From IMG/VR virus record IMGVR_UViG_3300049435_000037: 46,727 bases of DNA, one strand, 5' to 3'. Below, in pieces: positions 1 to 46,727 of this stretch. The position numbers and the translations under genes were made by a program. How positions within the stretch are numbered: position 1 is the stretch's first letter; each line of letters begins with the position of its first letter. Source of the stretch: a virus. The notes beneath the pieces are model-generated. The model worked only from the letters and a program-made list of their open reading frames with translations, was not told the origin of the DNA and searched no databases.

Positions 1-127
1 ATCTCAGCGCCGAAGAGGTAGCCGCACGCGTCATCGCAGCACTGGACGACAAGCGCGCCAAGACCCACAACCTCATCGTTGTGGGTCGCTTCGGTTTCGA
101 GGATCAGGAGGTGTTCCAGGCGGCCGT
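1..127. repeat. Terminal duplication: bases 1-127 are identical to 46601-46727 (circular or permuted genome written linearly)
   Basis: Base-by-base comparison of both ends shows an exact 127-nt match. The duplication lies inside an open reading frame. Confidence 0.95.
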
Positions 128-7219: not shown

Positions 7220-7526
7220 AGCGGGCACCCCGCTCTGCCTGCTGGTCTCACGGATCAAGTACAAGCCCGAGGCCGAGTGGGACGCGTACATGCCGTCCCA
7301 CCAGATCAATCCCTCTCTGATCGTTCCGGAGGAAGAGGCGTGGACATGGCTGCGAATGGATCTCCGTCTGGCCGCAGCCGAACTCGTACGTCTGGCGGGG
7401 ATCTACGCGAACCGCTCCCCCTCGGGCCAGTCCTGGAACATTACGGGGTCTCCCTACGCGGTCAGCGAGGGGCGGGTCTATGTCCAGCCCATGGAGAACG
7501 ACGTGAATCCTTCTCCTACGATCTGA
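7002..7526 (+). CDS. PD-(D/E)xK Holliday-junction-resolvase-like endonuclease
   Basis: GTG 7002 lies 8 nt after AGGAG. Motifs GAETERKVAAYL, DDKGDV and VQVKYW (E/D...D...E-x-K layout). The last 40 or so codons look like an out-of-frame tail. Confidence 0.65.
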   Translation: MTTPNGRKGAETERKVAAYLRTWFPLADRVLRQGRRDDKGDVQGIPFTAVQVKYWESPRLQAWVTDTLKQRDEAGTPLCLLVSRIKYKPEAEWDAYMPSHQINPSLIVPEEEAWTWLRMDLRLAAAELVRLAGIYANRSPSGQSWNITGSPYAVSEGRVYVQPMENDVNPSPTI

Positions 7527-7765
7527 GCAAGGGCCTCTTCTGCTGCTTCGCCTGCGATGTGCGGGGGACAGCGATCGAACTGATCGTGGCCATGGAGGGG
7601 TGTGACCGTGCATCTGCCCACGACCGAGCAGAGGAAATTCTTCGAGCAAGCGGTGTCGCAGTACCAGAGCGATCTGCGTACGGATATCGCCGGCCAGGCG
7701 TATCTGACGAGCCGGGGAGTCAGCGCCGCCGCAGCCGCTACGTTCCGCCTGGGCGTGCTGCGTAA
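7346..7765 (+). CDS. DnaG-type primase, CHC2 zinc-finger part
   Basis: ATG 7346 lies 7 nt after GGAGGAAGAGG. CPAHGERRESFSYDLSKGLFCCFACDVRGTAIELI gives C-x2-H-x17-C-x2-C. The last 30 or so codons are Arg-rich and overlap the TOPRIM ORF. Confidence 0.7.
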   Translation: MAANGSPSGRSRTRTSGGDLREPLPLGPVLEHYGVSLRGQRGAGLCPAHGERRESFSYDLSKGLFCCFACDVRGTAIELIVAMEGCDRASAHDRAEEILRASGVAVPERSAYGYRRPGVSDEPGSQRRRSRYVPPGRAA

Positions 7766-8282
7766 CCCGCTGCTCGGCCACGAGCGTTACCAGGGCAGAC
7801 TGTGCATCCCGTACATCACCCCGGCGGGGGTGGTGACGATGACCTTCCGCTGCATCCAGCGCCACATCAACGTGACCTCGGGCGCAGTCGAGTCGTGCGG
7901 CGATCACAGCCATGGCAAATACCTGGCCCCCGAGGGCATCGACCGCACCCTCTACAACGTCACGGACCTGAAGAAGGTCAGTCAGCACATCCTCCTGGTG
8001 GAGGGTGAGATGGACGCGCTGACCTGGTCCATGTGCGGATGGCCGACGGTGGGGATCCCCGGCGTGGAGAACTGGAAGGATCACTTCTCCAAGTGCATAG
8101 ACGACTACGCGGAAATCCTGGCCATCTGCGACGGGGACGACGCCGGCTACCGGCTCGGCACCTTCCTGGCCCGCGAGGTGCGGGCCCGGGTCATCCGCCT
8201 CCCCCGTGGGGAGGACGGCAACAGCCTCTACGTGAAGGGAGGGCGTGATGCCCTCGCAGGAGTCCTCGCCGGACTCGACTGA
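7608..8282 (+). CDS. DnaG-type primase, TOPRIM catalytic part
   Basis: GTG 7608 (or 7602) follows GGAGGGG. Motifs AYLTSRGV, LLVEGEMDALT (E-G-x-x-D) and ICDGDDAG (DxD). It is in a different frame from the zinc-finger ORF. Confidence 0.8.
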   Translation: MHLPTTEQRKFFEQAVSQYQSDLRTDIAGQAYLTSRGVSAAAAATFRLGVLRNPLLGHERYQGRLCIPYITPAGVVTMTFRCIQRHINVTSGAVESCGDHSHGKYLAPEGIDRTLYNVTDLKKVSQHILLVEGEMDALTWSMCGWPTVGIPGVENWKDHFSKCIDDYAEILAICDGDDAGYRLGTFLAREVRARVIRLPRGEDGNSLYVKGGRDALAGVLAGLD

Positions 8283-24551: not shown

Positions 24552-25457
24552 TCAGCCACCGTACGGGTTATTGAACACGGCGTTGTCGAGGGCGTTCTTG
24601 TAGGTCGTCGCGGCCTGCACCGCGCCGTACTCCTTCTTGCCCTTGACCTGCTGCTCGGCCAGGTACTGCTTGGCGTTGGCGCCGAAGCCTCCCTTGGACG
24701 AGGACTTGGTGCCGACAGCCTCACCGGTGTTCATGTCGTACTCGGTGGTGGTCTGCTGGACGATCGGGGAGTTGGACTCAGCAGTGTTGAGGGCACCGGC
24801 GAACGTGCCCAGCTCCCCCTTGCCGGGGTCGCGCCCCATCAGCTGCTGGAACACCGAGGTCGCGATGGCCTTGGCCGTGACCGGGTCAGTCAGGTCGACC
24901 TGCTGCTGGTAGGTCGTCTTGAAGTGGGGGCCGACGTACCGCTTCTCGCCGGTGTACCGGTTGACCTCGAAATCTCCCTGCCGCACCCAGGCGTCAGCAC
25001 TGCTGGACCTGGACTGCTGGCCGGTCAGGTACATGCTCAGCACATCCCACGGGGAGATCTTGCGACCGGCCGTGGTGTACGCCTGCGACCGGTCGACCAG
25101 CTTCTTCCAGAGCTTCTGGGCCTCCACGGGCCCGGCGTCGTCCTGGAGCTGGCCGGCCATGATGCCGTGGGCGATGAAGTCGTTGAGCTGCTTGCCGGAC
25201 CAGTGATCGAAATCCGTCAGCGCCTGGGTGGCCGGGATCTCGATGGGCTGTGCCTTGTAGATGCCGATCGGCTTGTTGAGCTGGGCCAGGCCCTTGGGGC
25301 TGAGCGGGCCCCGGGGGATGCCGGGCGTCGGGCCGGCGACCGCGCCCATGTAGACGTTGCCGCCCTTGGTCGGGCTGGTGCCGCCGCCCGAGTTGAGGAA
25401 TGCATTCTTGCCAGCGGTCTCGCCGCTGCTGCTGTTACCGCCGCCGTCGAGGCTCAT
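24552..25457 (-). CDS. Virion protein (301 aa)
   Basis: TGATG coupling to the 1650-aa gene. Gly/Ser-rich N-terminus. Confidence 0.7.
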   Translation of the reverse strand: MSLDGGGNSSSGETAGKNAFLNSGGGTSPTKGGNVYMGAVAGPTPGIPRGPLSPKGLAQLNKPIGIYKAQPIEIPATQALTDFDHWSGKQLNDFIAHGIMAGQLQDDAGPVEAQKLWKKLVDRSQAYTTAGRKISPWDVLSMYLTGQQSRSSSADAWVRQGDFEVNRYTGEKRYVGPHFKTTYQQQVDLTDPVTAKAIATSVFQQLMGRDPGKGELGTFAGALNTAESNSPIVQQTTTEYDMNTGEAVGTKSSSKGGFGANAKQYLAEQQVKGKKEYGAVQAATTYKNALDNAVFNNPYGG

Positions 25458-28400
25458 CAGACAACCCCCTGCGTCGTCTCCGGTGCTGCGTCCACGCCCA
25501 GATCGCGCGCCAGGTACCGGTGGTACAGGTCGCCGAACTTGGTGTCCTTCTCGATCAAACTATCCACGTATCCGACCCACTGCGTCTGTAGGTCAGCGTT
25601 GGCCTGCGCCGTGAGGGTGCCCGAGCCTCCGGCCTGCTTGCGGTCGTTGAGCATCGAGACAAGCTGCTGCCGGGCCCCCAGATACTCCTGCAGCTTCTTC
25701 AGGTCGGTGCGGGCCGGGTTGTTGGCCAGGGACGATCGTGCCACCCGCAGCAGAGCAGGGATCCTGCGCTCGTACTTACGAGCGTCCTGGGCGAACCAGT
25801 CCTTGGACCACTCGGCGTTGTAGTAGGGGTTCGGGGTGCCGTCCGGGTAGAGCGGCTCCGCGTACAGGGAGACCCAGGCCTTCTTGTCGGCCTTGAAGCT
25901 TTCAGCCCCGGGGTCATCGAAGGACTGGAACCCGGCCTTGTGCAGGTCGGCGGTGACCGAGTTCATCCGCTTGATGAACTTCGCCCATCCCAGCCGGCGC
26001 TGGTTCTCCGCGAGCGCCTGGTCGGCGCTCATCCGGGACCGCATCATCTCGGACCCGCCCGGGACGAGCGGGTTGTTCAGCTCGTACTGGTACGCGTCCG
26101 GGGAGAACGGGCCCTTCCCGTCCGGGCCGATGATCAGGGCGCCCAGCTCCGGGTTGGCAGCCAGCAGCCCGGCGTACTGCTTCTGCAGCGCCGCCGCGCT
26201 CTGGGTGGGGTTGATCCCGCCGTTGTTCTTGGTGATCTCCGCAGCGAAGATGAAGTAGCTTTCCCCGTACCGCTGGAGGAACTTGTCGTCTGCGGTCATC
26301 GGGTCCTTGCCCCGCAGGTTGTTGTACTGGTCCCGGTAGAACTGGAACGGGTCCTTGCGCTGGGTGGCCATCGGCTGCAGGAACGAGCTGGCGGCCTGGA
26401 AGAACCAGTAGTTGCGGGTCCGGTCCGCGATCTCCTTGGCCGAGGGCATCGGCACGTGGTTGTTGGCGTGGTCGAAGATCGCCTGCTGCATGATCTGCAT
26501 CTTGATCGACTGGTACCGCGAGTCGGACGTGTTCAGCCCAGTCACGAAATTGCGCAGGGTGGCCGGCAGCACCTGACTGGCCAGCTTCTCGTACGTGTTG
26601 CCGGTTGCCTGCCCCACGGGCAGGACTCCCAGGTGCCGCAAGACCTCGGCGTCCTTGGGCTTGTCGGCCACGAACATGTTCGCCGGGATGGTGACGATGG
26701 GGCCGACGCCCGGGTTGAACCAGGGGTCGCCCTGCGTGACCATGTTCATGCTGTTCTGGCTGAGTGCGAGGGTGCCGCCAGCCTTGGTGATGTTGAAGGC
26801 CACGCCCAGCGGGGAGTCGGCCACCCACTTGGGGACGCGGGTGACAATCCAACGCTCCGACTTGGGCACGATGCGCCACTTGCCGGTGACCGGGTCGAGC
26901 GCCTTGCCGTTCGGCAGGATGTGGTTGCCGTTGCCGTCCTGCATGGCGCCCAGGGCTAGCGGGGCGTTGAAGAAGGTGGCAGCGTAGCCGGCCACCTCCG
27001 GCTTGTCGGCGATGATCCGGCCCCAGCGCTGGAACGCCTCGGCCGTGGCCGAGAAGAAGGGGCTGATGAACCGCAGGGCTGCTGCGGCATCGCTGCGGTG
27101 AGCGATGTCGAATACCAGCTTGCGGGTGTCACGCAGCGCCAGCTGCCGGGCAGCGTCCGTGATGTGGGTGACCTCTTCGACCGTGCGGTTCGGCAGCTCC
27201 CACGCACCCTGGTTCTCCCGGGTGGCGACGATCTTCTTCAGGTGCCCCTCGTAGAGCTGGTTGTAGAGCGGGTGCCGCGACATCCGGTTGGCCGGCAGGG
27301 TCGCCGCGAAGTCGTACCAGCGCTGGACGACCCGGTCGAGGGTGTTCATGTGGTTGAGCTGGGTCAGGCCGATGTTGCCAATGTGCACGTCAGGCCGGGC
27401 AACCAGCTGGGGCACTGCCTTCTTCAGGAAATCGGGCGTGACCTCGCCCTCCAGGGCCTTGTCCCGGATCTCCTGGAAGGGCATGTACTGGTCGATCTCA
27501 TGCTGCATCGACCGAGCGATGTCCTCGGTCGTGATCATCTTCGGCAGGCGCTTGCGGTACGCGATCCCCTTGGCGTCCTTGGTCATCCAGTCGATGGCGG
27601 CCTGGACGTCCATGCCCGCGACCATCTGGGACTGGAGCGGATCCTGCATCATCTGGTGGTTGATCGCATGGGCCCACGCCTGGGCGTGCGCCGCCTCGTC
27701 CTGGGCCACCGAGATGGGCCGGGCGCCGTGGCTGAAGCTACGCTCCAGGTTCCCCTGGATCATTTGCTTGCTGGCGTTGAAGATGTTGCCGACCGACTGA
27801 TCCGCCGAGACCTGGGCCATGTGGTAGTCGGCCATCCGGCCGCCGAAGGCGGGCTCGAAGGTCTGACCGTTGACCGTTACCGGCTCCGAGCCCTGGATGA
27901 CCTTCTTGCTCTGGGCCTCGTAGCCTTCCAGTTCCTTCTTGACCAGCGCCTCGTGCGTGTTCAGGTGGTGCCACTGAAGCTCAAGATCCTGGAGCTTCAT
28001 GTTCTTGCCAGCGGCGCCGACGGTGACGCGCCGCTCAGCCTGGCGGAGCTGCAGGGTCCGGTTGCGCAGCATCTGGTCGTGCGCAGCGCGGGTCACCGGC
28101 CTGGTGCCGGCCGGGAGATTGGCGATCCGGTCCTGGATCTTGGCGACGCGCGCCTGTGCTTTTGTCAGGTCCCTGGCATTCGACACACGGCGGGCAGGGA
28201 CCTGAACCCGAAGATCCTTCAAGAGAGGCTCGATCAGCCCCTTTTCTGTGGAAATGTACTCAAGCTTCTGGAGCCCGATCTGCTGCTGCGCCTCGATGGC
28301 CGGGCGCGCCAGCCGGCGCGAGGCGTTGGTGACACCGTTCTTGATGCCGTACCCGATGCGTCCAGCCATGGCCACGGAGCCGAGGCGAGCCCACTGACCG

Positions 28401-30409
28401 GACAGGTCGTCGCCCATGACGCGGGGGATGTAGCCGAGGCGGAACAGGGTGCCGAACTTCCACATGTACTGGAGGTTGTCGGCCGCCGTCTTCACCCAGT
28501 CCTCAGCATTCCCCGCCGATCGGCGGAGAGCCTGCAGCCCGTCGCCGTGGCGCCGGAACACCTTGTCCATGGCGTCGAGGTCTTGGAAGATGTGGTCGTT
28601 GATCAGCCGGGTGACCGTGAACGGCTCGATCGAGACCTTGTTGCCACCGGTCGTGAAGTGGTCGATGTGCAGGGGCTGGCCGGCAGCCACTTCCTCGGGG
28701 GAGCGCTGCGCGGCCGAGAAGACCTTGTCGTCCTGGGCCCGAGCCTGCAGCCCATCCCGCTCCGCAGCCAGGTTCCGCATGTGCTCGTCGTAGATCGCAC
28801 TGCCGTCCTCCGGGGAGAACCCGTGCTTCTGCGCGACCTTGGCCGCGCCGATCCGGCCGATGTCGTCCAGCAGATCCTTGCGCTCAGACTCGGTCGTGGT
28901 CTTCATGTACTTGTTGAGCATGCTTGCCCTGGTCTCCGGCTTGATGCCGGGGATGCGGGCGAGGAACCCGCGCAGCTCGGTGATCGAGTCCTTCTCCAGG
29001 GTGCCGATCCGCATGTAGCCGTTGGGGGTGGCGTTCTTGAGCATCCGCACCACGGTGACCGGGCCGGAGAAGAAGTCGCCGGCCCCCCACAGGGTCGACT
29101 TCACGAATCCGGCGTCGATCGGGGTTGGCGTGTAGCTGGCCTTGCTCAGCACCGGCTTGCCCGGCGTGATGGTCACCGGGCGGGGCCCGCCACGGCCAGC
29201 GCCGATCGTGTAGACGTTCTGCGCGTCCGTCATCTGCTGGGCCCGAGCCATCGACCACCGCGAGGTGTTCAGCTCGTCCAGCATGTCGCCGTTCTGGAGG
29301 ATCTGGTCGTACCGATTGATCAGCGCGCCGTCGGCGGCCCGGTTGTCGGACAGCCGCTTCATCTCCATCTCCACCAGCTTCTGGTGGGCGGGAAAGTTGG
29401 TGTACCGGGCGTGCTGGAGGTCCAGGGCGCTCAGCCGCGAGAGGTCAGCGTCCATCCGCTCGGCCGCCATGCGGTTGGCGTTCCGCAGCTCGGCCATGGC
29501 GTCGACATCGCCCATGCCGGAGCGTACGAACAGCGACACTTCCTCCGGGGTCTGCAGCGTGGCCGCGATCGATCCGAAGCGAGGGCCCATGGCGCTGTTG
29601 CGTGCCATCGAGGTGTTGTTCAGCAGCTGCGGGTTGTCCCGGTTGTCGTAGATCGCCTGGATCATCTTCTTGACCGGGGACTTGTCCATCATCTTGGCGA
29701 TGGAGTCGGACGCCCACCCGCCCTCGGGGCGGCGCATGACGACCTTCGCCTCACGCAGGGCGCCCAGCGCCTTGCCGCCCAGGATGGTGGGGTCGAGCGT
29801 CATCACCGATGCAAAGTCGACGGCGCCAGTGCCGTACTTGAACCAGTCGGACCCCTGGCGCTTCTGCTCCACGAAGGCGTTGCCGACCGCAGGCATCCCG
29901 GCCTGCTTGAGGATGTTCTGCTGCTCCTCGGGCGCCATCTTCTCCCAGCCGGCGGGGAGGAAGGATGCGGCGGGGGTGTAGTAGAGAAGCGGCGAATCGA
30001 CAGCCTTCTGCCGGTCCTCATCGGACAGGAAGATCGCCTGACCGGGCGAGATGTGCTCAGCCGCATGCCAGGCCTTGCCCCACTTGGCCGCAGAGAAGAA
30101 GTCGCCGTACGACCCGCCGTGGCGGGTCATGCCGCCCTCCAGGATCGCCGAGGAGATGGGCTGCGACACCCCGTTGCTGTAGAGCCACCGCATCCCGGCC
30201 ATGGTGCTCTCCAGGCCCGGAGCGGCGAAGTTTGCGTGCGCGTTCGGATCGCCCGTGGTGTTCGGGGCGTTCGGGAACTGCTTGGTGGCCTTGCCGGGCG
30301 TGTAGAACGGGTCGATGTACTTGTCGACCGTCTGGCCGGCCGTGTATACCCCGGCGATGCCGGTGGCGATACCGTCGCCGATATCCTTGAGGAAATCCCC
30401 GATGCCCAT
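25457..30409 (-). CDS. Giant virion protein (1650 aa; internal/ejection-protein candidate)
   Basis: Uninterrupted 4.95-kb ORF with consistent codon bias. TAATG/TGATG coupling on both sides. I recognised no catalytic motif. Confidence 0.85.
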   Translation of the reverse strand: MGIGDFLKDIGDGIATGIAGVYTAGQTVDKYIDPFYTPGKATKQFPNAPNTTGDPNAHANFAAPGLESTMAGMRWLYSNGVSQPISSAILEGGMTRHGGSYGDFFSAAKWGKAWHAAEHISPGQAIFLSDEDRQKAVDSPLLYYTPAASFLPAGWEKMAPEEQQNILKQAGMPAVGNAFVEQKRQGSDWFKYGTGAVDFASVMTLDPTILGGKALGALREAKVVMRRPEGGWASDSIAKMMDKSPVKKMIQAIYDNRDNPQLLNNTSMARNSAMGPRFGSIAATLQTPEEVSLFVRSGMGDVDAMAELRNANRMAAERMDADLSRLSALDLQHARYTNFPAHQKLVEMEMKRLSDNRAADGALINRYDQILQNGDMLDELNTSRWSMARAQQMTDAQNVYTIGAGRGGPRPVTITPGKPVLSKASYTPTPIDAGFVKSTLWGAGDFFSGPVTVVRMLKNATPNGYMRIGTLEKDSITELRGFLARIPGIKPETRASMLNKYMKTTTESERKDLLDDIGRIGAAKVAQKHGFSPEDGSAIYDEHMRNLAAERDGLQARAQDDKVFSAAQRSPEEVAAGQPLHIDHFTTGGNKVSIEPFTVTRLINDHIFQDLDAMDKVFRRHGDGLQALRRSAGNAEDWVKTAADNLQYMWKFGTLFRLGYIPRVMGDDLSGQWARLGSVAMAGRIGYGIKNGVTNASRRLARPAIEAQQQIGLQKLEYISTEKGLIEPLLKDLRVQVPARRVSNARDLTKAQARVAKIQDRIANLPAGTRPVTRAAHDQMLRNRTLQLRQAERRVTVGAAGKNMKLQDLELQWHHLNTHEALVKKELEGYEAQSKKVIQGSEPVTVNGQTFEPAFGGRMADYHMAQVSADQSVGNIFNASKQMIQGNLERSFSHGARPISVAQDEAAHAQAWAHAINHQMMQDPLQSQMVAGMDVQAAIDWMTKDAKGIAYRKRLPKMITTEDIARSMQHEIDQYMPFQEIRDKALEGEVTPDFLKKAVPQLVARPDVHIGNIGLTQLNHMNTLDRVVQRWYDFAATLPANRMSRHPLYNQLYEGHLKKIVATRENQGAWELPNRTVEEVTHITDAARQLALRDTRKLVFDIAHRSDAAAALRFISPFFSATAEAFQRWGRIIADKPEVAGYAATFFNAPLALGAMQDGNGNHILPNGKALDPVTGKWRIVPKSERWIVTRVPKWVADSPLGVAFNITKAGGTLALSQNSMNMVTQGDPWFNPGVGPIVTIPANMFVADKPKDAEVLRHLGVLPVGQATGNTYEKLASQVLPATLRNFVTGLNTSDSRYQSIKMQIMQQAIFDHANNHVPMPSAKEIADRTRNYWFFQAASSFLQPMATQRKDPFQFYRDQYNNLRGKDPMTADDKFLQRYGESYFIFAAEITKNNGGINPTQSAAALQKQYAGLLAANPELGALIIGPDGKGPFSPDAYQYELNNPLVPGGSEMMRSRMSADQALAENQRRLGWAKFIKRMNSVTADLHKAGFQSFDDPGAESFKADKKAWVSLYAEPLYPDGTPNPYYNAEWSKDWFAQDARKYERRIPALLRVARSSLANNPARTDLKKLQEYLGARQQLVSMLNDRKQAGGSGTLTAQANADLQTQWVGYVDSLIEKDTKFGDLYHRYLARDLGVDAAPETTQGVV

Positions 30410-34121: not shown

Positions 34122-36116
34122 CTACCAACTAAGGCTGCCGTCCCAAACGACGCTGGCGTTGCCAGCGACCTGCTGCTGGATGGCGTAGTCGATGTCGATC
34201 ACCATCTGGTCCTCAGTGTCGCGCAGGTTTCCGAACTCGCCTGCGCCCAGGTGGTGGCCGCTGTACTCCGTGAACATCAGCTCTCGACACCGGATCTCCG
34301 CGAACCACATGGCCATCACCACGTCGGTGAGGCCTTTGGTCTCGGGGAACCAGGCACACAGCTGCTCAATCATGTTGCGGATCGGCTCGCTGCGCGTCTG
34401 GCAGGGGAGCCTGATCAGGTTATGCCCTTTTTCCCAGCCCTCGAAGAGTGTGGCCATGGAGGCCACGCCGAAGTCGGGATCCCACTTCTTGGAGTCGGTG
34501 TGGTGGGGGTTGATGACGCAGCCGCGCGAGTGGAGCATCGTACGGATCAGCTGGTCCTGCACGATCGACCCCTGGTAGGCGTTCTTCTCGATCCGCCACT
34601 CGTTGATCCGGTACTTGTCGGTCAGCCGCTCGATCTCGTTGCGCATCTCGTGCGGGGGCAGGGCGCGACGGTTGACGACCTCCAGGACCCACCGCACACC
34701 CGACTGCCGGTCAAGACCGATGACCACCATGGCGGTGAAGCCGGACGCGGCCGGGTCAAGGCCGGCCACGACGTACAGCCCTTCCATGCCGTGCTGGCGG
34801 TGCTGGCTCTGGCCGTCGTACATGGGGCCAGGAACGCGGGCCCGGTCGACGCACCCCTGCACCGCCTCCATGGAGAAGGTCGAGTCGTCGGAGACCTGGT
34901 CCTGCATGTAGATCATCGACCAGTTACGGGCCGACATCTTGCGCCGCTTACGCTGCAGCGCCTCGCCGTGCCACATCGGCCAGTTGCCGTCATCGTCAGG
35001 CCAGCCAGCCTCCTCGGCCACCCGCCTGCCCTGGCTGGTCACCGGTGGCCGGTTGGTAACCGGCCACAAGGTCACCCAGTCCCTCGGAGCGTCCGCGTAC
35101 TCCATGACGGCCGGCTGGGTCAGGTACGTCCACGGGCTTTGGCCCTCGACGTAGTAGTGGTCCTTCAAGATCTCGCTGTACAGGTCGACGGACTCGATGC
35201 GGGTGCCAACCAGCAGCATGCGGCCGCCAGCGTCCGCCACCCGGGTACCGACCTGGTTCTGGATCCAGTCGATCTGGCTCTGGAACTGCTGGAAGTTCGT
35301 GTGGTCGACGCAGTCGTCCATGATGGCCAGGTCGGCGCGAGTTCCGTAGATCTGGCCGCCGACGCCCACGGCCTGGACCGTGTAGGCGTGCTCACCCGAG
35401 TCGGAGCCGTTGACCCGGATCTTGGTCTGCGCCCAGGTGTCGCCCGAGGCGAACCCGCCCGGCGGGGCGAACGCCGCCTGCAGAGCGGCGTAGCTGGCAT
35501 TGCCGGCCAGGCGCTCCTTGATGGCGTGCAGGAACTTGCCGGCCATGTCCTGGGTCCGGCTGATGATCAGCACCCGGATGTTGGGATCCTGGCAGATCCG
35601 CCACACCACGTAGTTCACGGACAGCGTCGTGGACTTCGCGTGCTCCGGCGGAGTGTTGATCAGGATGTTGTCGATCTCGCCCTTGACGTAGATCTGCCGA
35701 GGATGCAGATCCCGAGGCTCCCGACCCTCCAGAACATCGATCCACTGCAAGTGGTGCCGGAAGAGCTGAGTGCCCAGGTACTCCGAGCAGAAGTCCGGGA
35801 AATCGGGGATGGTCGCCCTGGCCGTCGCCAGATCCGTGGTCCGCTGCGTGAGGATCAGATCAACCTGATCCCGCCACTCAGGGAAGTTGTCCCGGTAGTA
35901 CTGGTACGCAGACCGGGACCGCTGAGCGGCCCGGCACGCGTCATCAATGCTGAACCCCTTCGTCAGGGCTGCCAGCATCGTGTTGCGGGACTGCTGCGAG
36001 GAGCCGGCACTACGGCGGTTGTCACGGCCGAGCGCAGCGGCGCCGGCCGAACCCTGACGACCCCGGTAGCTGGGGCCATCCTTCGGCTCATCAGCCGGGA
36101 TCTCGATCCTCACCAT
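34122..36116 (-). CDS. terL: Terminase large subunit with an N-terminal HTH-like extension (664 aa)
   Basis: PPEHAKSTT (P-loop-like), LAIMDDCVD (Walker B), VVAGLDPAASG and EKNAYQG nuclease-domain segments. An N-terminal SIDDACRAAQRSRSAYQYYR HTH precedes them. Start ATG 36116 has a weak RBS. Confidence 0.85.
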   Translation of the reverse strand: MVRIEIPADEPKDGPSYRGRQGSAGAAALGRDNRRSAGSSQQSRNTMLAALTKGFSIDDACRAAQRSRSAYQYYRDNFPEWRDQVDLILTQRTTDLATARATIPDFPDFCSEYLGTQLFRHHLQWIDVLEGREPRDLHPRQIYVKGEIDNILINTPPEHAKSTTLSVNYVVWRICQDPNIRVLIISRTQDMAGKFLHAIKERLAGNASYAALQAAFAPPGGFASGDTWAQTKIRVNGSDSGEHAYTVQAVGVGGQIYGTRADLAIMDDCVDHTNFQQFQSQIDWIQNQVGTRVADAGGRMLLVGTRIESVDLYSEILKDHYYVEGQSPWTYLTQPAVMEYADAPRDWVTLWPVTNRPPVTSQGRRVAEEAGWPDDDGNWPMWHGEALQRKRRKMSARNWSMIYMQDQVSDDSTFSMEAVQGCVDRARVPGPMYDGQSQHRQHGMEGLYVVAGLDPAASGFTAMVVIGLDRQSGVRWVLEVVNRRALPPHEMRNEIERLTDKYRINEWRIEKNAYQGSIVQDQLIRTMLHSRGCVINPHHTDSKKWDPDFGVASMATLFEGWEKGHNLIRLPCQTRSEPIRNMIEQLCAWFPETKGLTDVVMAMWFAEIRCRELMFTEYSGHHLGAGEFGNLRDTEDQMVIDIDYAIQQQVAGNASVVWDGSLSW

Positions 36117-36194
36117 GACATGAGTGTGCCCCCTGCTCTGGGATACTGATGAGTGTCGAGCTTCACCAGGTCCAAGAAGGAGGGGGCATCTCTG

Positions 36195-36503
36195 GTGTCC
36201 ATAGAAGCACAGTGGCCCGGTACCTGCCAGCGCTGCACCAAAGGCTGGGGCAAGGGCGACAAGCTTGACCGCCCCAAAAGCGGCGGTCCCTGGATGCATA
36301 CCCGCTGCGCCCGCCAGACCCCAGCCGCCGAGCGGCCGGTCCCCACCAATCTGGACGGCGTCACCGTCACCACCGAGCAGCGGCAGAAGATCGCCAGCGG
36401 CAAGACGCTTCACAAGGATCTGGCCGAGCGTGCCCTGGAGACATGGAAGGTTGACGGCTGGAAGCTCACCGAGGAGCAGGCCGAAGGTCTGATGGGGAGC
36501 TGA
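36195..36503 (+). CDS. Hypothetical Cys/His protein, first gene of the plus-strand arm (102 aa)
   Basis: GTG 36195 lies 8 nt after AAGGAGGGGG. Sequence CQRC...H..C. Confidence 0.65.
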   Translation: MSIEAQWPGTCQRCTKGWGKGDKLDRPKSGGPWMHTRCARQTPAAERPVPTNLDGVTVTTEQRQKIASGKTLHKDLAERALETWKVDGWKLTEEQAEGLMGS

Positions 36504-37950
36504 AGGGCGCTTGTAGGGTTCTCACAAACTTTGTTGTGGGGATCCTCCAAAAATACCCAGGGGGGGTATTCAATTCGCGTTCATGACGACGTATAACGCC
36601 GCATAAGTCCAGTTTTGGCTTTGCGATAGGATACGTCTGACCGTCGGGCCGCAGCGCCCGACGGAAGCAGTTAGAAGCATGGAAGGCCTGATCAAGGGGT
36701 CCGCAGCGACCCCCAAGGGAGCTGCGGGAAGTACCTGGTCGCGCGGAGCGCGAGGACCAAGGGGTCTGGTGGGCATGGGTGGACGGAGTCCATCCCATCC
36801 CATCAGCCCCAGTTAAAAAGCCTGGGGTCAAGGATGACGCAGAGTCATCCTTGCAGGTCAGGGGGCTGATGGGCTGGAGCGGAGCGAACAGCTCATCCGC
36901 AGCGATGAGCAGTCCGCCAGCCTGCTACTGATCAGCAGCCGATAGCTGCTGATCATAGACATGTGGATCACAGCATGTATGCATGCAAGGGCATGCCGAT
37001 CTGTCGATCGGCCAGCCCCCTCACAGGGGGTGGCCGAGGTAGTGGGTAGGTGCAGGTAGTAGCAGGCTCCTCGTCGCAGTGCTGCGCACTGCTCCTCGTA
37101 GCCCGCTCCCTCGGTCGTAGCCGAGAGGCTGGCGCCTCTCACCTACTCCCTCGCTCGCGGTGCCGTTGGTTGACATGACCATGGCTGATCCTCGTACGCC
37201 CGTGCGCGCGTAGGCGCGCCCGTGTGTGCACACCATGCGCACGCGCATCACGCGCGTGCGTGCAGGGATGATCCTTGATCTTGATCCCAGGCCTTGCTGA
37301 TCATGCTCTGTGATCTTCGCAGGGGTAGAACACGTTCTAAATGACTCTCCGTGCACGCCCTCTGAGCTGCGTCTTTGAGAGCTTTACCATCTCTTTGCCA
37401 CGGGATCGCTTGACTCTGACTCACGCCTAAAGGAGCTTGGGGAACGTTCCACCCCAACTCAACAGCCCGGCAGGCAGGCCCCCGCTCCTCAGGAGCGGTT
37501 GTGGCAGCCAGTCTCAGGGGAGCAGCCCGCAGCGCGGGCCACGTGCAGGGATGGGTGAAGCGAGCGGGAGAGGTCCGCAGGGATCTTGAACGGATCGCGT
37601 GGGGACATGATCCATTGACAGCTGAAGAGTCCGACCACACCGGCCCCCGTAGAACGGGGCGCGGACGGGTGACCACCCTGGACATGGCCGTACCCCGAGA
37701 GGGGATGCGGTGAGCCAGGAGGTGAACCGACAGACCAGCCCCGGCAGGGACTGGCAGGGTGTGGGCTACTGGACCCCGTGGACCCCCGCCGTGAGGCGTT
37801 GGGGACGGGACAGACCGTATGACACAGACTTGTCAGTACAGGGCGTGAGACAGGCTCTCACAGCGTTTTCTGTACCACGCTTTGTACTGACCTCTGTCAT
37901 GAGGGACTGGCCGACCGGGCCAGCCCTTGATGATGGTGGGAGAGATCATC
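36504..37950 (+). other. ORF-poor, lower-G+C, hairpin-dense region (candidate origin / early control region / structured ncRNA locus)
   Basis: No ORF here shows the genome's codon bias. More than 20 perfect or near-perfect inverted repeats, a recurring CCGCAGCG motif, palindromes, a GATC cluster and short direct repeats (coordinates in the findings). Confidence 0.6.
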
Positions 37951-38175
37951 ATGGAGCTTCACGAGTTCGGGACGTTCAACCAGTTCGGTGCCCCCGTGAG
38001 GGCGTACGAGCGGGGCGAACTGATCAAGGACTTCAGGGGAGACGAGTGGGTGTATCTCGGCGTTGCCGATGCCCCCTCGCCCGGCAAGAGTGGCAAGGTG
38101 CGCGTTACTTCGCCGACCGGAGACGAGCGGGTGTTCTACCCGACCGTGTTCGACGCGGTGATCTTGCCCAAGTGA
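37951..38175 (+). CDS. Hypothetical protein (74 aa)
   Basis: ATG 37951 lies 6 nt after GGGAGAG. Clean coding pattern. Confidence 0.7.
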   Translation: MELHEFGTFNQFGAPVRAYERGELIKDFRGDEWVYLGVADAPSPGKSGKVRVTSPTGDERVFYPTVFDAVILPK

Positions 38176-38191
38176 TCTAGTTCGCTCGGAG

Positions 38192-38213
38192 CGCACGGCT
38201 TCACGGCCGTGCG
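38192..38213 (+). terminator. Hairpin CGCACGGC-TTCACG-GCCGTGCG
   Basis: 8-bp stem, 17 nt after the stop at 38175. Followed by TTGCGG. Confidence 0.4.
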
Positions 38214-38238
38214 TTGCGGGGGGCAACTAGGCCTCACT

Positions 38239-38259
38239 GATCATGTGGGAGTGATCATG
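38239..38259 (+). promoter_or_regulatory. Conserved 21-nt leader GATCATGTGGGAGTGATCATG (copy 1; includes SD and start codon)
   Basis: Identical to 39483-39503. Confidence 0.6.
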
Positions 38260-38667
38260 GCAACTCAGCTTCACCCCTTGCTCATGGGTGCGTTGTACGA
38301 CGCCACGTTTCTCGATGGCGGTGCAACGGTGGAGATCAGCGATGACGGACAGGTCGACATCCCGGAAAAGGGGTTCGTCGTGTCCGCCACCGCAATGGAC
38401 TTCACGGCGCAAGCCGATGAGGACCCGAGCAAGTTCTTTGACGTGATGGTGGACGTCCTTGCGGACTTCAACCCTCCCGCGTTGGGTGTCTGGCGAGAGC
38501 CTGGCACCAACACGATCTTTGTGGACCCCGTAGAGATCTACGAGCTGCAGGCGGACGCGATGGCGGCCGCCTACGCACGCGGAGAGATCGCGATCTACGA
38601 CCTGTCCACGCAGACCACACTCCACGTGTCCGCTGATGTGGCGGGGTACGAGGGGTACGAGGACTGA
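38257..38667 (+). CDS. Hypothetical protein (136 aa)
   Basis: ATG 38257 follows GGGAG. Good codon bias. Confidence 0.75.
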   Translation: MATQLHPLLMGALYDATFLDGGATVEISDDGQVDIPEKGFVVSATAMDFTAQADEDPSKFFDVMVDVLADFNPPALGVWREPGTNTIFVDPVEIYELQADAMAAAYARGEIAIYDLSTQTTLHVSADVAGYEGYED

Positions 38668-38669
38668 TC

Positions 38670-38762
38670 ATGCCTCGGGGGCACCGGCTGACGTCGGTGC
38701 CCACCGGCGAGGTGATCACCCTTGATCATCCAGTGATCGTTAGGAGAGGCGATCATGACTGA
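38670..38762 (+). CDS. Possible 30-aa peptide
   Basis: ATG 38670 lies 6 nt after GAGGA. Sequence MPRGHRLTSVPTGEVITLDHPVIVRRGDHD. Overlaps the next start by 8 nt. Confidence 0.3.
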   Translation: MPRGHRLTSVPTGEVITLDHPVIVRRGDHD

Positions 38763-46332: not shown

Positions 46333-46601
46333 TGGCAGGCAACAGCAAGCCCAACCTCAGCCGCCAGCAGCGCATGAATCTGACCAAGAAGATGGAGAAG
46401 GCTGACGACGCCCGCCAGAAGGCTCACGACGACTACCTCGTAGCCATCTCGGAACTGATGGACCAAGGTCTCACCGGCCAGGATGTGGTCTACGTGCTCG
46501 GCAATATCACCGAGTCAACCGTCCACTCACGCCGGAGGCTGGGCCGTGCCATCAGAGACGAACGTAGTGGCAGCGATTCTGTCGAATCCGGAGAACAGTG
46601 A
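46332..46601 (+). CDS. Hypothetical protein (89 aa)
   Basis: TAATG coupling. Charged helical protein. Confidence 0.7.
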   Translation: MAGNSKPNLSRQQRMNLTKKMEKADDARQKAHDDYLVAISELMDQGLTGQDVVYVLGNITESTVHSRRRLGRAIRDERSGSDSVESGEQ

Positions 46602-46727
46602 TCTCAGCGCCGAAGAGGTAGCCGCACGCGTCATCGCAGCACTGGACGACAAGCGCGCCAAGACCCACAACCTCATCGTTGTGGGTCGCTTCGGTTTCGA
46701 GGATCAGGAGGTGTTCCAGGCGGCCGT
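46546..46727 (+). CDS. 5' part of the junction-spanning gene (continues at base 1 as 128-446 of the unit genome)
   Basis: In-frame GTG 46546 lies 7 nt after GGAGG; GTG 46567 is an alternative. The frame is identical to feature 1-446 through the 127-nt duplication. Confidence 0.45.
   Translation, partial: MPSETNVVAAILSNPENSDLSAEEVAARVIAALDDKRAKTHNLIVVGRFGFEDQEVFQAA
46601..46727. repeat. Second copy of the 127-nt terminal duplication
   Basis: Exact match to 1-127. Confidence 0.95.

What the first reader, a model, noticed from the sequence alone, without database searches (positions are those of the whole stretch)
36641..37539. The octamer CCGCAGCG recurs four times, each at the apex of an inverted repeat
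The four copies are:
- CCGTCGGGC-CGCAGC-GCCCGACGG (36641-36664)
- GGGGTC-CGCAGC-GACCCC (36696-36713)
- GCTCATC-CGCAGC-GATGAGC (36891-36910)
- GCCCGC-AGC-GCGGGC (37525-37539, contains CCGCAGCG)

The stems differ in sequence, but the loop CGCAGC, closed by a C-G pair, is the same in the first three. A fifth partial copy, GGTCCGCAGG, is at 37572-37581. My rough base-composition estimate puts the expected count of this octamer in about 1 kb well below one. Different stems presenting the same loop is the pattern expected for a hairpin-loop recognition element. The partner could be a protein binding RNA or single-stranded DNA, a primase or initiator loading site, or a nicking site. It is not the pattern expected of random GC-rich palindromes.
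Basis: seen in the sequence. Interest (0 to 1): 0.7.

Follow-up and report, generated by a model that had tools for sequence, protein, structure and literature searches.

The report
Phage genome-end hairpins sharing one loop
Three short hairpins with the same loop are real and under selection. They belong to a dense field of hairpins in the non-coding end region of a Streptomyces-type phage genome, and what reads them remains unknown.

Summary
Three perfect hairpins (36641-36664, 36696-36713, 36891-36910) share the loop CGCAGC on the + strand. The fourth copy is a different hairpin (loop AGC) whose octamer is lost in a relative. The fifth is an imperfect C-GCAG-G hairpin.

They lie in a 1,447-nt non-coding zone (36504-37950) between the large terminase gene and the early genes of a circularly assembled 46.6-kb phage. 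Its nearest isolates are cluster BF Streptomyces podoviruses, whose terminal repeats sit at this position. The zone holds 19 perfect hairpins against 2.4 in shuffles.

Near relatives keep hairpin 3's loop on three different stems. An 82%-terminase relative keeps hairpin 2's stem with a different loop. The loop is therefore selected, but only within this lineage.

Across the clade, each genome reuses its own loops. C-GNA-G apexes, typical of stable DNA hairpins, are three-fold enriched. Their strand flips within the zone.

My best reading, with moderate confidence, is single-stranded DNA hairpins used in end replication or concatemer processing, resembling Streptomyces telomere palindromes. RNA hairpins are the main rival.

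Separately, 37613-37900 is a well-supported candidate structured RNA.

The parts
36195..36503 (+). Small Zn-ribbon protein gene (YPGxCxxC...HxxC). It is divergent from the large terminase gene and reads toward the hairpins. Context; a possible partner.
   Evidence: GC3 periodicity and ribosome-binding site. Weak match to phrog_1581, a family of unknown function. Homologues occupy the same place in L049, L050 and L042, with a conserved N-terminus and a variable C-terminus.
36504..37950 (.). Non-coding zone between the terminase side and the first early gene. It is packed with short perfect palindromes.
   Evidence: No GC3 periodicity. 19 perfect hairpins against 2.4 +/- 1.6 in shuffles. Every relative with enough flanking DNA has an equivalent 0.6-2 kb zone; those with 0.7 kb or more of it held carry 17-37 hairpins. 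In cluster BF isolates the terminal repeat lies in the equivalent position.
36641..36664 (+). Hairpin 1: CCGTCGGGC-CGCAGC-GCCCGACGG.
   Evidence: Identical in L003 and L049. Absent from L050, where this segment is replaced.
36696..36713 (+). Hairpin 2: GGGGTC-CGCAGC-GACCCC.
   Evidence: Kept in L003 and L049. In L042 the same stem carries loop GGC.
36739..36753 (+). Anchor hairpin TCGCGC-GGA-GCGCGA. Its central heptamer is GCGGAGC.
   Evidence: The stem is conserved across the clade while the loop varies (gga, agt, gaa, acc, atac, cccc). One paper states that this heptamer's complement is the loop segment shared by the N4 promoter hairpin and Streptomyces telomere Palindrome I (PMC5449611).
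36761..36810 (+). Conserved core. It folds as one long imperfect hairpin with a C-GGA-G apex (GTA in L042). It marks the mosaic joint with L050 and is a candidate terminal-repeat boundary or terminase site.
   Evidence: Nearly invariant in window, L003, L050 and L042; kept in L049 with one base change. Homology with L050 starts at 36760. The L049 contig ends at 36821. It resembles the Kumquat repeat boundary GGGGATGGACT|GTCCCATCC by eye only; BLAST finds nothing significant.
36795..36877 (+). Long-range stem (36795-36806 with 36866-36877) that encloses two hairpins, 36807-36827 and 36829-36853 (loop GCAGA).
   Evidence: (pair I10). L042 carries a compensatory T>G / A>C change in this stem. The GCAGA loop reads ACAGA in L003 and GGAGA in L050.
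36891..36910 (+). Hairpin 3: GCTCATC-CGCAGC-GATGAGC.
   Evidence: The loop is kept on three different stems in window, L003 and L050. Absent from L042.
37076..37092 (-). Hairpin GCAGTGC-TGC-GCACTGC. This is the first apex with C-GCA-G on the minus (terminase-sense) strand, so the polarity flip lies between 36910 and 37076.
   Evidence: Conserved in L003 and L050.
37196..37265 (.). Block of alternating purine-pyrimidine palindromes (GCGCGC, GTGTGCAC, CGCACGCGC...).
   Evidence: Blocks of similar composition occur in L005, L007, L008, L012, L027 and next to the FlowerPower terminal repeat.
37525..37539 (+). It is a separate 3-nt-loop hairpin and the octamer in it is incidental.
   Evidence: L050 has GCTCGC-ACT-GCGAGC, with a compensated stem and a changed loop.
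37571..37586 (+).
   Evidence: It is perfect in L050, AGATCC-GCAG-GGATCT. DNA folding is weak here, z = -0.8.
37613..37900 (+). Candidate structured RNA or 5' leader of the early operon. It shares the non-coding zone but is not part of the hairpin set.
   Evidence: 78 pairs in 10-11 helices. 23 pairs (4 sequences) or 39 pairs (5 sequences) show compensatory change, against 8.9 +/- 2.2 and 14.5 +/- 2.8 in shuffles and at most 9 in slid controls. G-U pairs fall on the + strand. The covariance model finds it in L003, L050, L042 and L012. No Rfam match.
37907..37950 (+). Hairpin CTGGCC-GACCG-GGCCAG, followed by a hairpin that holds the ribosome-binding site in its loop (GATGAT-GGTGGGAGAG-ATCATC), directly before the ATG at 37951.
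   Evidence: The first hairpin has four different perfect stems in four genomes. The ribosome-binding-site palindrome recurs at other early gene starts.

Best explanation
What is shown. Hairpins 1-3 are real stem-loops under selection. They are three members of a dense array of short, perfectly Watson-Crick palindromes. The array fills the non-coding region between the large terminase gene and the early genes of a 46.6-kb phage. In the nearest isolated relatives (cluster BF Streptomyces podoviruses) this region carries the direct terminal repeat.

What is inferred. The hairpins most likely work as single-stranded DNA hairpins.
- Their shared apex can be read as the very stable DNA mini-hairpin C-GCA-G plus one bulged C. 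This is one version of the C-GNA-G apex that dominates these arrays across the clade.
- The strand carrying the GNA apex flips inside the zone. On each side it is the strand that would end 3' at a genome end lying in the zone. That strand is also the lagging-strand template of a fork running toward that end.
- I therefore propose that the array folds when the genome ends become single-stranded, during end replication, resection and annealing of the terminal repeats, or concatemer cutting. The folded hairpins would protect or organise that DNA, as the GNA-loop palindromes of Streptomyces telomeres do.
- The identical CGCAGC apex in this lineage is either a site read by a lineage-specific factor (candidates: the adjacent Zn-ribbon protein, or terminase) or simply this lineage's preferred stable apex, spread by local duplication.
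For: Hairpin density and shared loop are far above chance.

Stems are compensated while the loop is kept:
- Hairpin 3 has three different stems with the same loop.
- Hairpins 1 and 2 differ by one compensatory pair in their centres.
- Other hairpins in the zone also covary, for example 37907 with four different stems.

Clade-wide evidence from 17 genomes:
- 188 of 274 3-nt-loop hairpins are closed by a C-G pair. Of these, 37% have a GnA/TnC centre against 11.4% expected.
- The strand with GNA is the window-like + strand near the terminase gene and the opposite strand further away (55 of 66 within-genome pairs, permutation p = 0.0002). The switch is clean in L042.
- Hairpins 1-3 and the GGA apexes at 36739 and 36783 all follow this rule.
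- Stems show no preference for G-T over other mismatches (7 G-T, 4 A-C, 22 other).
- RNA folding energy shows no consistent strand bias.
- Loop sharing within a genome exceeds sharing between genomes.

Position:
- BF isolates have 253-275-bp terminal repeats ending about 360-400 nt upstream of the terminase gene, inside 1.8-1.9 kb of non-coding DNA (PMC9753666).
- The conserved core at 36761-36810 is a mosaic joint.

Precedent: Streptomyces telomere overhangs fold into tightly packed palindromes with GNA loops that resist single-strand nucleases, and one paper states that the N4 promoter hairpin shares the central heptamer (PMC5449611).

Host: terminase relatives at 64-67% identity sit in Streptomyces assemblies.
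Against: - The physical ends of this genome are unknown. The window is a circular assembly, and similarity to BF repeat boundaries is by eye only.
- BF isolates, the only relatives with mapped ends, have no C-GNA-G hairpins with a 3-nt loop in their terminal DNA. The model therefore cannot be checked where the ends are known.
- If the repeat lies on the terminase side of the core, hairpin 3 and the GCAGA hairpin have the wrong polarity by about 130-290 nt.
- The nearest-neighbour DNA model predicts an open 6-nt loop. The C-GCA-G-plus-bulge apex is my inference from published work on GNA loops.
- Purine skew of the proximal half (GC skew +0.13, AT skew +0.10) explains part of the polarity.
- The genomes are related, so the p-values are overstated.
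- The same polarity is predicted by divergent transcription.
- The distal part of the zone is clearly a + strand RNA structure.
- A long-range stem with a compensatory change (36795/36877) is easier to picture in RNA.
Confidence: 0.4

Rival explanations
1. RNA hairpins. The zone is transcribed on the + strand as a long structured leader or non-coding RNA ahead of the early genes. A phage RNA-binding protein reads the CGCAGC loops, for example for antitermination, processing or stabilisation, in the manner of lambda boxB and N protein.
For: - All three copies are on the + strand, the sense strand of the Zn-ribbon gene that reads into them and of the early genes.
- The distal 290 nt of the same zone is a well-supported + strand RNA structure.
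- The long-range stem 36795/36877 has a compensatory change.
- Two single changes in near relatives leave G-T pairs on the + strand (36775 in window against L049; 37573 in window against L050).
- The window zone folds 37 kcal/mol better on the + strand.
Against: - Stems are perfect Watson-Crick palindromes, and G-U is not favoured among mismatches.
- There is no consistent strand bias across 16 genomes, and coding controls show similar + strand differences.
- The three-fold enrichment of GnA/TnC centres closed by C-G is a known DNA-hairpin signature. With divergent transcription the RNAs would carry UNC loops, which have no known special property (my own knowledge).
- Loops of homologous hairpins vary and can even appear as the reverse complement (ggt/acc) while the stems are kept.
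- No Rfam family matches.
Confidence: 0.25
2. No dedicated function for the shared loop. The palindromes are generated and kept perfect by a DNA-level process, such as template switching or fold-back synthesis in a frequently single-stranded end region. Hairpins 1-3 would then be local duplicates whose centre has not yet diverged.
For: - Arms are perfect and changes are always matched, as palindrome correction predicts.
- Hairpins 1 and 2 lie 55 nt apart and share 12 of 14 central bases.
- The loop is lost in L042 while the stem stays.
- The hairpin 1-2 segment is dispensable in L050.
- The hexamer is common genome-wide.
Against: - Hairpin 3 keeps 9-10 central bases while 4-5 bases of each arm changed, in a region only 78% identical.
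- Whole stems are replaced by unrelated stems of the same shape (37907), which arm-to-arm correction cannot produce.
- The array is kept in every relative with enough flanking DNA, with enrichment of particular apex classes and a strand polarity.
Confidence: 0.15
3. Duplex-DNA recognition sites. TCCGCAGCGA would be bound as double-stranded DNA by terminase or another phage protein as packaging or terminal-repeat recognition sites, and the flanking palindromy would be secondary.
For: - The sites lie beside the terminase gene and the probable terminal repeat.
- The motif is one-stranded, like the CCTAAAG repeats in and next to the T7 terminal repeat.
- No small terminase subunit was recognised.
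Against: - The variable flanks always stay complementary, which duplex recognition does not require.
- The motif is absent from L042, and from the equivalent segment of L050, although their terminases are 82% and at least 90% identical.
Confidence: 0.1
4. N4-type hairpin promoters. The hairpins would extrude from supercoiled DNA and be read on the template strand by a virion-carried RNA polymerase.
For: - The GNA apex lies on the template strand of both divergent gene blocks.
- The anchor hairpin has the heptamer GCGGAGC, whose complement one paper gives as the N4 promoter loop segment (PMC5449611).
- The phage is from a podovirus clade and has a 1650-aa virion protein of unknown function.
Against: - No RNA polymerase was found. 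The 1650-aa protein has no Pfam hit, and a 20-sequence profile has no PDB hit. One source names a homologue 'large polyvalent protein associated domain'.
- There are 19-37 hairpins per genome, which is too many for promoters.
- Hairpins 1-3 have 6-nt loops, and no sequence is conserved at a fixed distance from them.
Confidence: 0.04
5. Intrinsic terminators of the Zn-ribbon gene transcript, or general transcription insulators.
For: Hairpins 1 and 2 follow the stop codon at 36503 by 138 and 193 nt, and actinobacterial terminators often lack clear U-tracts (my own knowledge).
Against: - No T-run follows any of them. The scan found one terminator-like site in 36000-38300, at 37845, which is no more than chance.
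- An array of about 19 hairpins is far more than termination needs.
- Genomes that carry a different gene segment here still have arrays.
Confidence: 0.05

Closest known systems
Telomere palindromes of Streptomyces linear chromosomes and plasmids (Tap/Tpg end patching)
   Same: - Tightly packed short palindromes at the ends of a linear replicon in the same host genus.
- 3-nt GNA loops closed by C-G on the strand that becomes single-stranded; these are compact and resist nucleases.
- Stems differ while the loop class is shared.
- Neighbouring palindromes are protein-binding sites (PMC5449611).
   Different: - Telomere palindromes occupy the first 170-330 nt of a protein-capped end and are conserved in sequence.
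- Palindrome I has no match here beyond chance.
- This array spans 0.7-1.5 kb next to a direct terminal repeat.
- No terminal protein, Tap or Tpg was recognised among the products screened.
- The apex of hairpins 1-3 is a 6-nt loop, not a plain 3-nt loop.
Left and right end regions of phage T7 (terminal repeat plus CCTAAAG short repeats and early promoters)
   Same: - A podovirus with a direct terminal repeat and about 0.9 kb of non-coding DNA before the first early gene.
- A short motif repeated on one strand, in and next to the repeat: CCTAAAG 11 times in the first 340 nt.
- Small hairpins inside the repeat.
   Different: - The T7 motif is not at hairpin apexes.
- T7 genes all run in one direction, and T7 carries its own RNA polymerase.
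- There is no detectable sequence relationship.
Phage N4 early promoters (DNA hairpins read by the virion RNA polymerase)
   Same: - Several hairpins near a genome end, with differing stems, 3-nt purine-centred loops closed by C-G, and strand specificity.
- The anchor hairpin carries GCGGAGC, the complement of the N4 promoter loop segment as given in PMC5449611.
   Different: - No virion RNA polymerase was recognised.
- There are far more hairpins here.
- Hairpins 1-3 have 6-nt loops.
Lambda-type nut/boxB RNA hairpins bound by N protein
   Same: Short hairpins in the early leader whose loop, not stem, is what the protein reads (my own knowledge).
   Different: - boxB loops are GNRA-like 5-nt loops, and the stems are conserved within a phage.
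- No N-like protein or boxA was identified.
- Transcription of these hairpins as RNA is not shown here.

Membership tests
Streptomyces-type telomere palindromes | Tightly packed palindromes with C-GNA-G apexes on the strand ending 3' at the replicon end | tested here: inconclusive
   GnA/TnC centres are enriched three-fold and their strand flips within the zone. The position of the physical ends in this genome is unknown.
Streptomyces-type telomere palindromes | Conserved Palindrome I sequence (CCCGCGGAGCGGG) at the extreme end | tested here: not met
   7 matches with up to 2 mismatches, against 8.3 expected. The match at 36740 is only the anchor hairpin.
Streptomyces-type telomere palindromes | Covalently bound terminal protein and the Tap/Tpg genes or dependence on them | not tested
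   None of the 33 products screened against PHROGs or Pfam matched a terminal protein, Tap or Tpg, but most small products were not screened. BF relatives are reported with direct terminal repeats (PMC9753666).
N4-type hairpin promoters | 5-7 bp stem with a 3-nt purine-centred loop on the template strand | tested here: inconclusive
   The polarity fits the template strand of both gene blocks. Hairpins 1-3 fold with 6-nt loops in the nearest-neighbour model.
N4-type hairpin promoters | A phage-encoded virion RNA polymerase | tested here: not met
   No RNA polymerase was found among the products screened. The 1650-aa virion protein has no Pfam or PDB match, even as a 20-sequence profile. No fold comparison was made.
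Intrinsic (rho-independent) terminators | GC-rich hairpin followed by a T-run | tested here: not met
   The scan of 36000-38300 found one site (37845), which is chance level. None is at hairpins 1-3.
Any Rfam RNA family | Match to a curated covariance model | tested here: not met
   Only two tRNAs reach the gathering score in the window. Nothing meaningful appears at E<=5 in 36100-38000.
Direct-repeat hairpin arrays (CRISPR repeats and RNA mimics of them, REP elements) | The same stem-and-loop unit repeated | tested here: not met
   The stems differ. Only 8-14 central bases are shared.
Lambda-type nut/boxB | RNA hairpin with a GNRA-like 5-nt loop in the early transcript, plus an N-like protein | not testable with these tools
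   The loop is not GNRA-like (read directly from the sequence). Transcription and the protein partner cannot be tested here.

The most novel reading that the evidence does not exclude
A large, mostly uncultured clade of Streptomyces-type podoviruses, sister to cluster BF, carries telomere-like arrays of 17-37 DNA hairpins beside its terminal repeat. The arrays have a strand polarity that flips at the genome end. Each lineage has its own apex 'code' (CGCAGC here; GGT, AGT or TTC elsewhere), read by a co-evolving phage protein such as the Zn-ribbon protein next to the terminase gene. This would be a previously undescribed way of replicating, protecting or packaging the ends of a terminally repeated phage genome, possibly borrowed from or competing with the host's own telomere machinery.
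Probability: 0.2. Interest if true: 0.8.

Novelty: new variant of a known kind. Interest (0 to 1): 0.55.

Why it matters
How phages with direct terminal repeats copy and process their ends is still only partly understood, even for T7, and the short repeats beside the T7 repeat have no assigned function.

This clade offers a natural experiment. It has many genomes, each with dozens of hairpins that evolve quickly but keep their shape, apex class and strand polarity. If the hairpins act as single-stranded DNA, they link phage end biology to the hairpin telomeres of the Streptomyces host. They would also point to new hairpin-binding proteins.

Even the modest reading is useful. It also gives testable oligonucleotides and candidate partners.

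The side finding, a 290-nt covarying RNA-like element ahead of the early genes, is a candidate new phage regulatory RNA.

Tried and rejected
- Nucleotide search of the zone against 50,697 phage records found no match.
- Two DNA-pattern scans of the metagenome collection, using the conserved core and the hairpin 3 flank, found nothing. The viral-collection scan found only L003 again.
- BLAST of the zone against the Kumquat end junction gave nothing significant, so the terminal repeat could not be transferred by homology.
- Contig ends of relatives cluster 560-840 nt upstream of the terminase gene but share no end motif, so they do not define the termini.
- Tests meant to separate RNA from DNA were underpowered or mixed:
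  - mismatch types in stems: 7 G-T, 4 A-C, 22 other;
  - mismatch types in GNA hairpins only: n = 6;
  - folding energy of the two strands across 16 genomes.
- BF isolates could not be used to test the polarity model because they lack C-GNA-G hairpins with a 3-nt loop.
- The idea that the Zn-ribbon protein is the primase's detached zinc domain was dropped. A CHC2-type zinc domain is encoded just upstream of the primase core, in ORF 7277..7765.
- The idea that the 1650-aa virion protein is an RNA polymerase found no support. No structure prediction was run.
- A loop-to-GCTGCG kissing interaction (sites at 36721, 37081, 37366) was considered. It was not pursued because the counts are near chance and one site changes in L003 and L050.
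Full report
**1. What is in the sequence**

- Hairpin 1: CCGTCGGGC-CGCAGC-GCCCGACGG (36641-36664).
- Hairpin 2: GGGGTC-CGCAGC-GACCCC (36696-36713).
- Hairpin 3: GCTCATC-CGCAGC-GATGAGC (36891-36910).
- "Copy 4": GCCCGC-AGC-GCGGGC (37525-37539).

The octamer CCGCAGCG occurs 11 times on both strands of the window, against 6.1 +/- 2.4 in shuffles. Four of these lie on the + strand within 886 nt.

Clustering of an octamer is not remarkable by itself. Twelve octamers reach four copies in 900 nt in the real sequence, and one shuffle in three produces such a case. The hexamer CGCAGC is common everywhere in this genome, 106 copies against 63 expected.

The hairpin context is what stands out.
- The region has 19 perfect hairpins (stem >=6, loop 3-8) in 1,447 nt, against 2.4 +/- 1.6 in dinucleotide shuffles and 2-8 in coding segments of the same length.
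- Its only three 6-nt loops are identical. Only 2 of 2000 shuffles gave even two hairpins sharing a loop of 5 nt or more.
- None of the seven other octamer copies in the window is at a hairpin apex.

**2. Corrections to the observation**

- Copy 4 is a 3-nt-loop hairpin in a different register. In relative L050 it reads GCTCGC-ACT-GCGAGC, so its octamer is incidental.
- The "partial fifth copy" is the apex of an imperfect hairpin, AGGTCC-GCAG-GGATCT (37571-37586), which is perfect in L050.
- A further related apex is CAAGGATGAC-GCAGA-GTCATCCTTG (36829-36853).
- Hairpins 1 and 2 share 12 of 14 central bases and differ by one compensatory pair. Hairpins 2 and 3 share TCCGCAGCGA.

**3. Where the hairpins sit**

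The window's first 127 nt equal its last 127 nt. It is therefore a circular assembly of a 46,600-bp genome.

Gene content:
- Minus strand, about 10.3-36.1 kb: large terminase, endolysin, portal, major head protein, tail proteins and a 1650-aa virion protein.
- Plus strand, from 37951 through the origin of the record to about 10.1 kb: exonuclease, DnaB-like helicase, primase and many small proteins.

GC3 periodicity shows that 36504-37950 is non-coding. A small + strand gene (36195-36503) for a Zn-ribbon protein lies between the terminase gene and this zone.

The nearest isolates are cluster BF Streptomyces podoviruses of the subfamily Beephvirinae, with terminase about 50% identical. They show the same terminase-endolysin-portal order (PMC11536984). 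They have 253-275-bp direct terminal repeats (PMC9753666). In them the repeat ends about 360-400 nt upstream of the terminase gene, inside 1.8-1.9 kb of non-coding DNA that joins the two genome ends.

By position, the window's zone is the end region of the genome. Nucleotide similarity to the BF junction is absent, so the exact ends cannot be placed. T7 has a comparable layout: 924 nt of non-coding DNA holding the repeat, a one-stranded short motif (CCTAAAG, 11 copies) and the early promoters.

**4. Relatives**

Terminase searches gave 39 viral contigs and, through the protein collection, closer genomes.

- L003 and L049 are near-identical strains. They keep hairpins 1 and 2 unchanged.
- L003 changes hairpin 3 by two compensatory pairs, GTCCATC-CGCAGC-GATGGAC.
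- L050 has a terminase at least 90% identical. It aligns at 78% identity from 36760 rightwards but carries unrelated sequence between 36214 and 36760. Hairpins 1 and 2 are therefore absent.
- L050's hairpin 3 is CATCCCTC-CGCAGC-GAGGGATG, a third stem with the same loop.
- L042 has a terminase 82% identical. It has GGGGTC-GGC-GACCCC in place of hairpin 2 and no hairpin 3.
- Relatives at 60-77% terminase identity have no hairpins with a CGCAGC loop.

The loop is therefore under constraint within a narrow lineage and is not conserved beyond it.

**5. The array is a property of the whole clade**

Every relative with enough flanking DNA has a 0.6-2 kb zone without coding periodicity beside the terminase gene. 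Those with 0.7 kb or more of it held carry 17-37 perfect hairpins.

Homologous hairpins keep their stem while the loop drifts. One example is the anchor hairpin (G)TCGCGC-nnn-GCGCGA(C), at 36739 in the window. Its loop reads gga, agt, gaa, acc, atac or cccc in different genomes.

Other hairpins keep only their shape. Hairpin 37907 has four unrelated 6-bp stems in four genomes.

Within a genome, hairpins share loops more often than hairpins from different genomes do: 44 identical-loop pairs against 21.2 +/- 4.5. Examples are GGT five times in L008, TTC four times in L024 and TTAG three times in L037. "Different stems, same loop" is a family habit, and the loop differs by lineage.

**6. DNA or RNA?**

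Three tests gave no sign of RNA-type tolerance:
- Single mismatches in stems are 7 G-T, 4 A-C and 22 other, which is the random proportion.
- Folding energies of the two strands differ in no consistent direction across 16 genomes.
- The stems are near-perfect Watson-Crick palindromes.

A DNA signature is present. Of 274 hairpins with 3-nt loops, 188 are closed by C-G. Of those, 37% have a GnA/TnC centre against 11.4% expected.

C-GNA-G is the classic very stable DNA mini-hairpin apex. It characterises the palindromes of Streptomyces telomere overhangs, and one paper states that the N4 promoter hairpin shares the central heptamer of telomere Palindrome I (PMC5449611). The window's anchor hairpin carries the complementary heptamer GCGGAGC discussed there.

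The shared apex of hairpins 1-3 can be read as C-GCA-G plus one bulged C. This is my inference. The nearest-neighbour model, which has no term for such loops, leaves the six bases open.

**7. Polarity**

The strand carrying the GNA apex is not random. It is the window-like + strand near the terminase gene and the opposite strand further away. This holds for 55 of 66 within-genome pairs (label permutation p = 0.0002). The switch is clean in L042.

In the window, all of the following carry the G-type apex on the + strand:
- hairpins 1-3;
- the GGA apexes at 36739 and 36783;
- the GCAGA hairpin at 36829.

The first apex of the opposite type is at 37076.

If the physical ends lie in the zone, as in BF phages, the GNA strand on each side is the strand that ends 3' at that end. 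It is also the lagging-strand template of a fork running toward that end. This is the geometry of Streptomyces telomeres.

Three caveats apply:
- The same polarity equals the template strand of the two divergent gene blocks.
- Purine skew of the proximal half explains part of the effect.
- The genomes are related, so the p-values are generous.

BF isolates cannot arbitrate, because they have no such hairpins.

**8. The conserved core**

Positions 36761-36810 are almost invariant in window, L003, L050 and L042. L049 keeps them with one base change.

The core folds as one long imperfect hairpin with a C-GGA-G apex (GTA in L042). It marks the mosaic joint with L050, and it lies 11 nt from the end of the L049 contig.

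By eye it resembles the BF repeat boundary (Kumquat GGGGATGGACT|GTCCCATCC against the window's minus strand GGGATGGACTCC|GTCCACCCAT). This is not statistically supported. I treat it as a candidate repeat boundary or terminase site, no more.

**9. Mechanism I commit to, and its rivals**

Shown: hairpins 1-3 are selected stem-loops within a clade-wide hairpin array in the genome-end region.

Inferred, with confidence about 0.4:
- They act as single-stranded DNA hairpins of the GNA class.
- They form when the ends are single-stranded, during end replication, repeat annealing or concatemer cutting.
- The lineage-specific CGCAGC apex is either read by a lineage-specific factor or is simply this lineage's stable apex, spread by local duplication.

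Rivals:
- RNA hairpins in a + strand leader read by an RNA-binding protein (0.25).
- No dedicated loop function, with palindromes maintained by template switching (0.15).
- Duplex recognition sites for packaging (0.1).
- Terminators (0.05).
- N4-type promoters (0.04). No RNA polymerase was found: the 1650-aa virion protein has no Pfam or PDB match even as a profile.

**10. Side finding**

The distal part of the zone, 37613-37900 on the + strand, is a different kind of object.

- It has 78 pairs in 10-11 helices, including long-range ones, with conserved unpaired blocks.
- With four sequences, 23 pairs show compensatory change, against 8.9 +/- 2.2 in shuffles and at most 6 in slid controls.
- A covariance model finds it full-length in L003, L050, L042 and the more distant L012 at 89.8 bits.
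- With L012 included, 39 of 78 pairs are compensatory against 14.5 +/- 2.8. That alignment was fitted to the model, so it leans towards the structure.
- G-U pairs fall on the + strand.
- It sits directly upstream of the first early gene and matches no Rfam family.

It is a good candidate for a new structured leader or regulatory RNA.

**11. Verdict**

Nothing like it appears in the papers I could search. The closest known systems are Streptomyces telomere palindromes, N4 hairpin promoters and the T7 end region. I rate it a new variant of a known kind, of moderate interest, with a clear set of decisive experiments.

Noticed in passing
window 37613-37900 (+): A roughly 290-nt element with 10-11 helices, long-range stems, conserved unpaired blocks and strong covariation (23-39 of 78 pairs compensatory). 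It is found in L003, L050, L042 and L012 and matches no Rfam family. It sits directly upstream of the first early gene and is a candidate new structured RNA or leader.
   Followed up: yes
window 37929-37953, 38238-38259, and ATCATG at 38752, 38847, 39945, 40827: At least six early genes start with a palindrome that places the Shine-Dalgarno sequence in the loop and the ATG just after the stem (TGATC..GGAG..GATCATG). Relatives show the same pattern.
   Followed up: partly
window 1-127 and 46601-46727: The first and last 127 nt are identical. The record is a circular assembly of a 46,600-bp genome, so a terminal repeat would be collapsed to one copy.
   Followed up: yes
window 36195-36503 (+); L050 4285-4593 (-); L042 4325-4561 (-): A small Zn-ribbon protein (YPGxCxxC...HxxC, phrog_1581, unknown function) is always encoded between the terminase gene and the hairpin zone. 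Its N-terminus is conserved and its C-terminus is variable.
   Followed up: partly
window 36760 (joint), 36214-36760: There is a sharp mosaic boundary with relative L050. The sequences are homologous to the right of 36760 (78% identity) and unrelated between 36214 and 36760, although the terminase genes are at least 90% identical.
   Followed up: yes
window 7277-7765 (+) and 7602-8282 (+): The primase appears split between two overlapping reading frames. A CHC2-type zinc-binding domain ORF is followed by the TOPRIM core ORF. This could be a frameshift, an assembly error or two separate genes.
   Followed up: no
window 25457-30409 (-): A 1650-aa virion-module protein has no Pfam or PDB match, even as a 20-sequence profile. 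One source names a homologue 'large polyvalent protein associated domain-containing'.
   Followed up: partly
proteins P0044, P0074, P0080, P0207, P0233 (relatives): Homologues of the terminase (64-67% identical) and of the 1650-aa protein lie on 8-9 Mb Streptomyces contigs. They suggest chromosomal or integrated copies of a phage clade whose isolates are called virulent.
   Followed up: no
window 37196-37265: A block of alternating purine-pyrimidine palindromes (GCGCGC, GTGTGCAC, CGCACGCGC), which is prone to Z-DNA or cruciform formation. Similar blocks occur in many relatives and directly beside the FlowerPower terminal repeat.
   Followed up: no
L018 (about 2074, 2424, 2977 nt from the terminase gene), L021 2899, L025 2053 and 2384, L026 2687: In the 65%-terminase group, hairpins with different stems and the loop (G/A/C)TGCCA recur between early genes. 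This is another case of the same loop on different stems.
   Followed up: no
loci L015, L016, L019, L022, L032, L038, L043, L049: Contigs from independent assemblies end 560-840 nt upstream of the terminase gene far more often than a uniform distribution predicts. The cause could be the physical ends, repeat-induced breaks or poor sequencing of palindromes. The ends share no motif.
   Followed up: partly
window, whole: The hexamer CGCAGC and its complement are over-represented genome-wide, 106 copies against 63 +/- 8 in shuffles.
   Followed up: no
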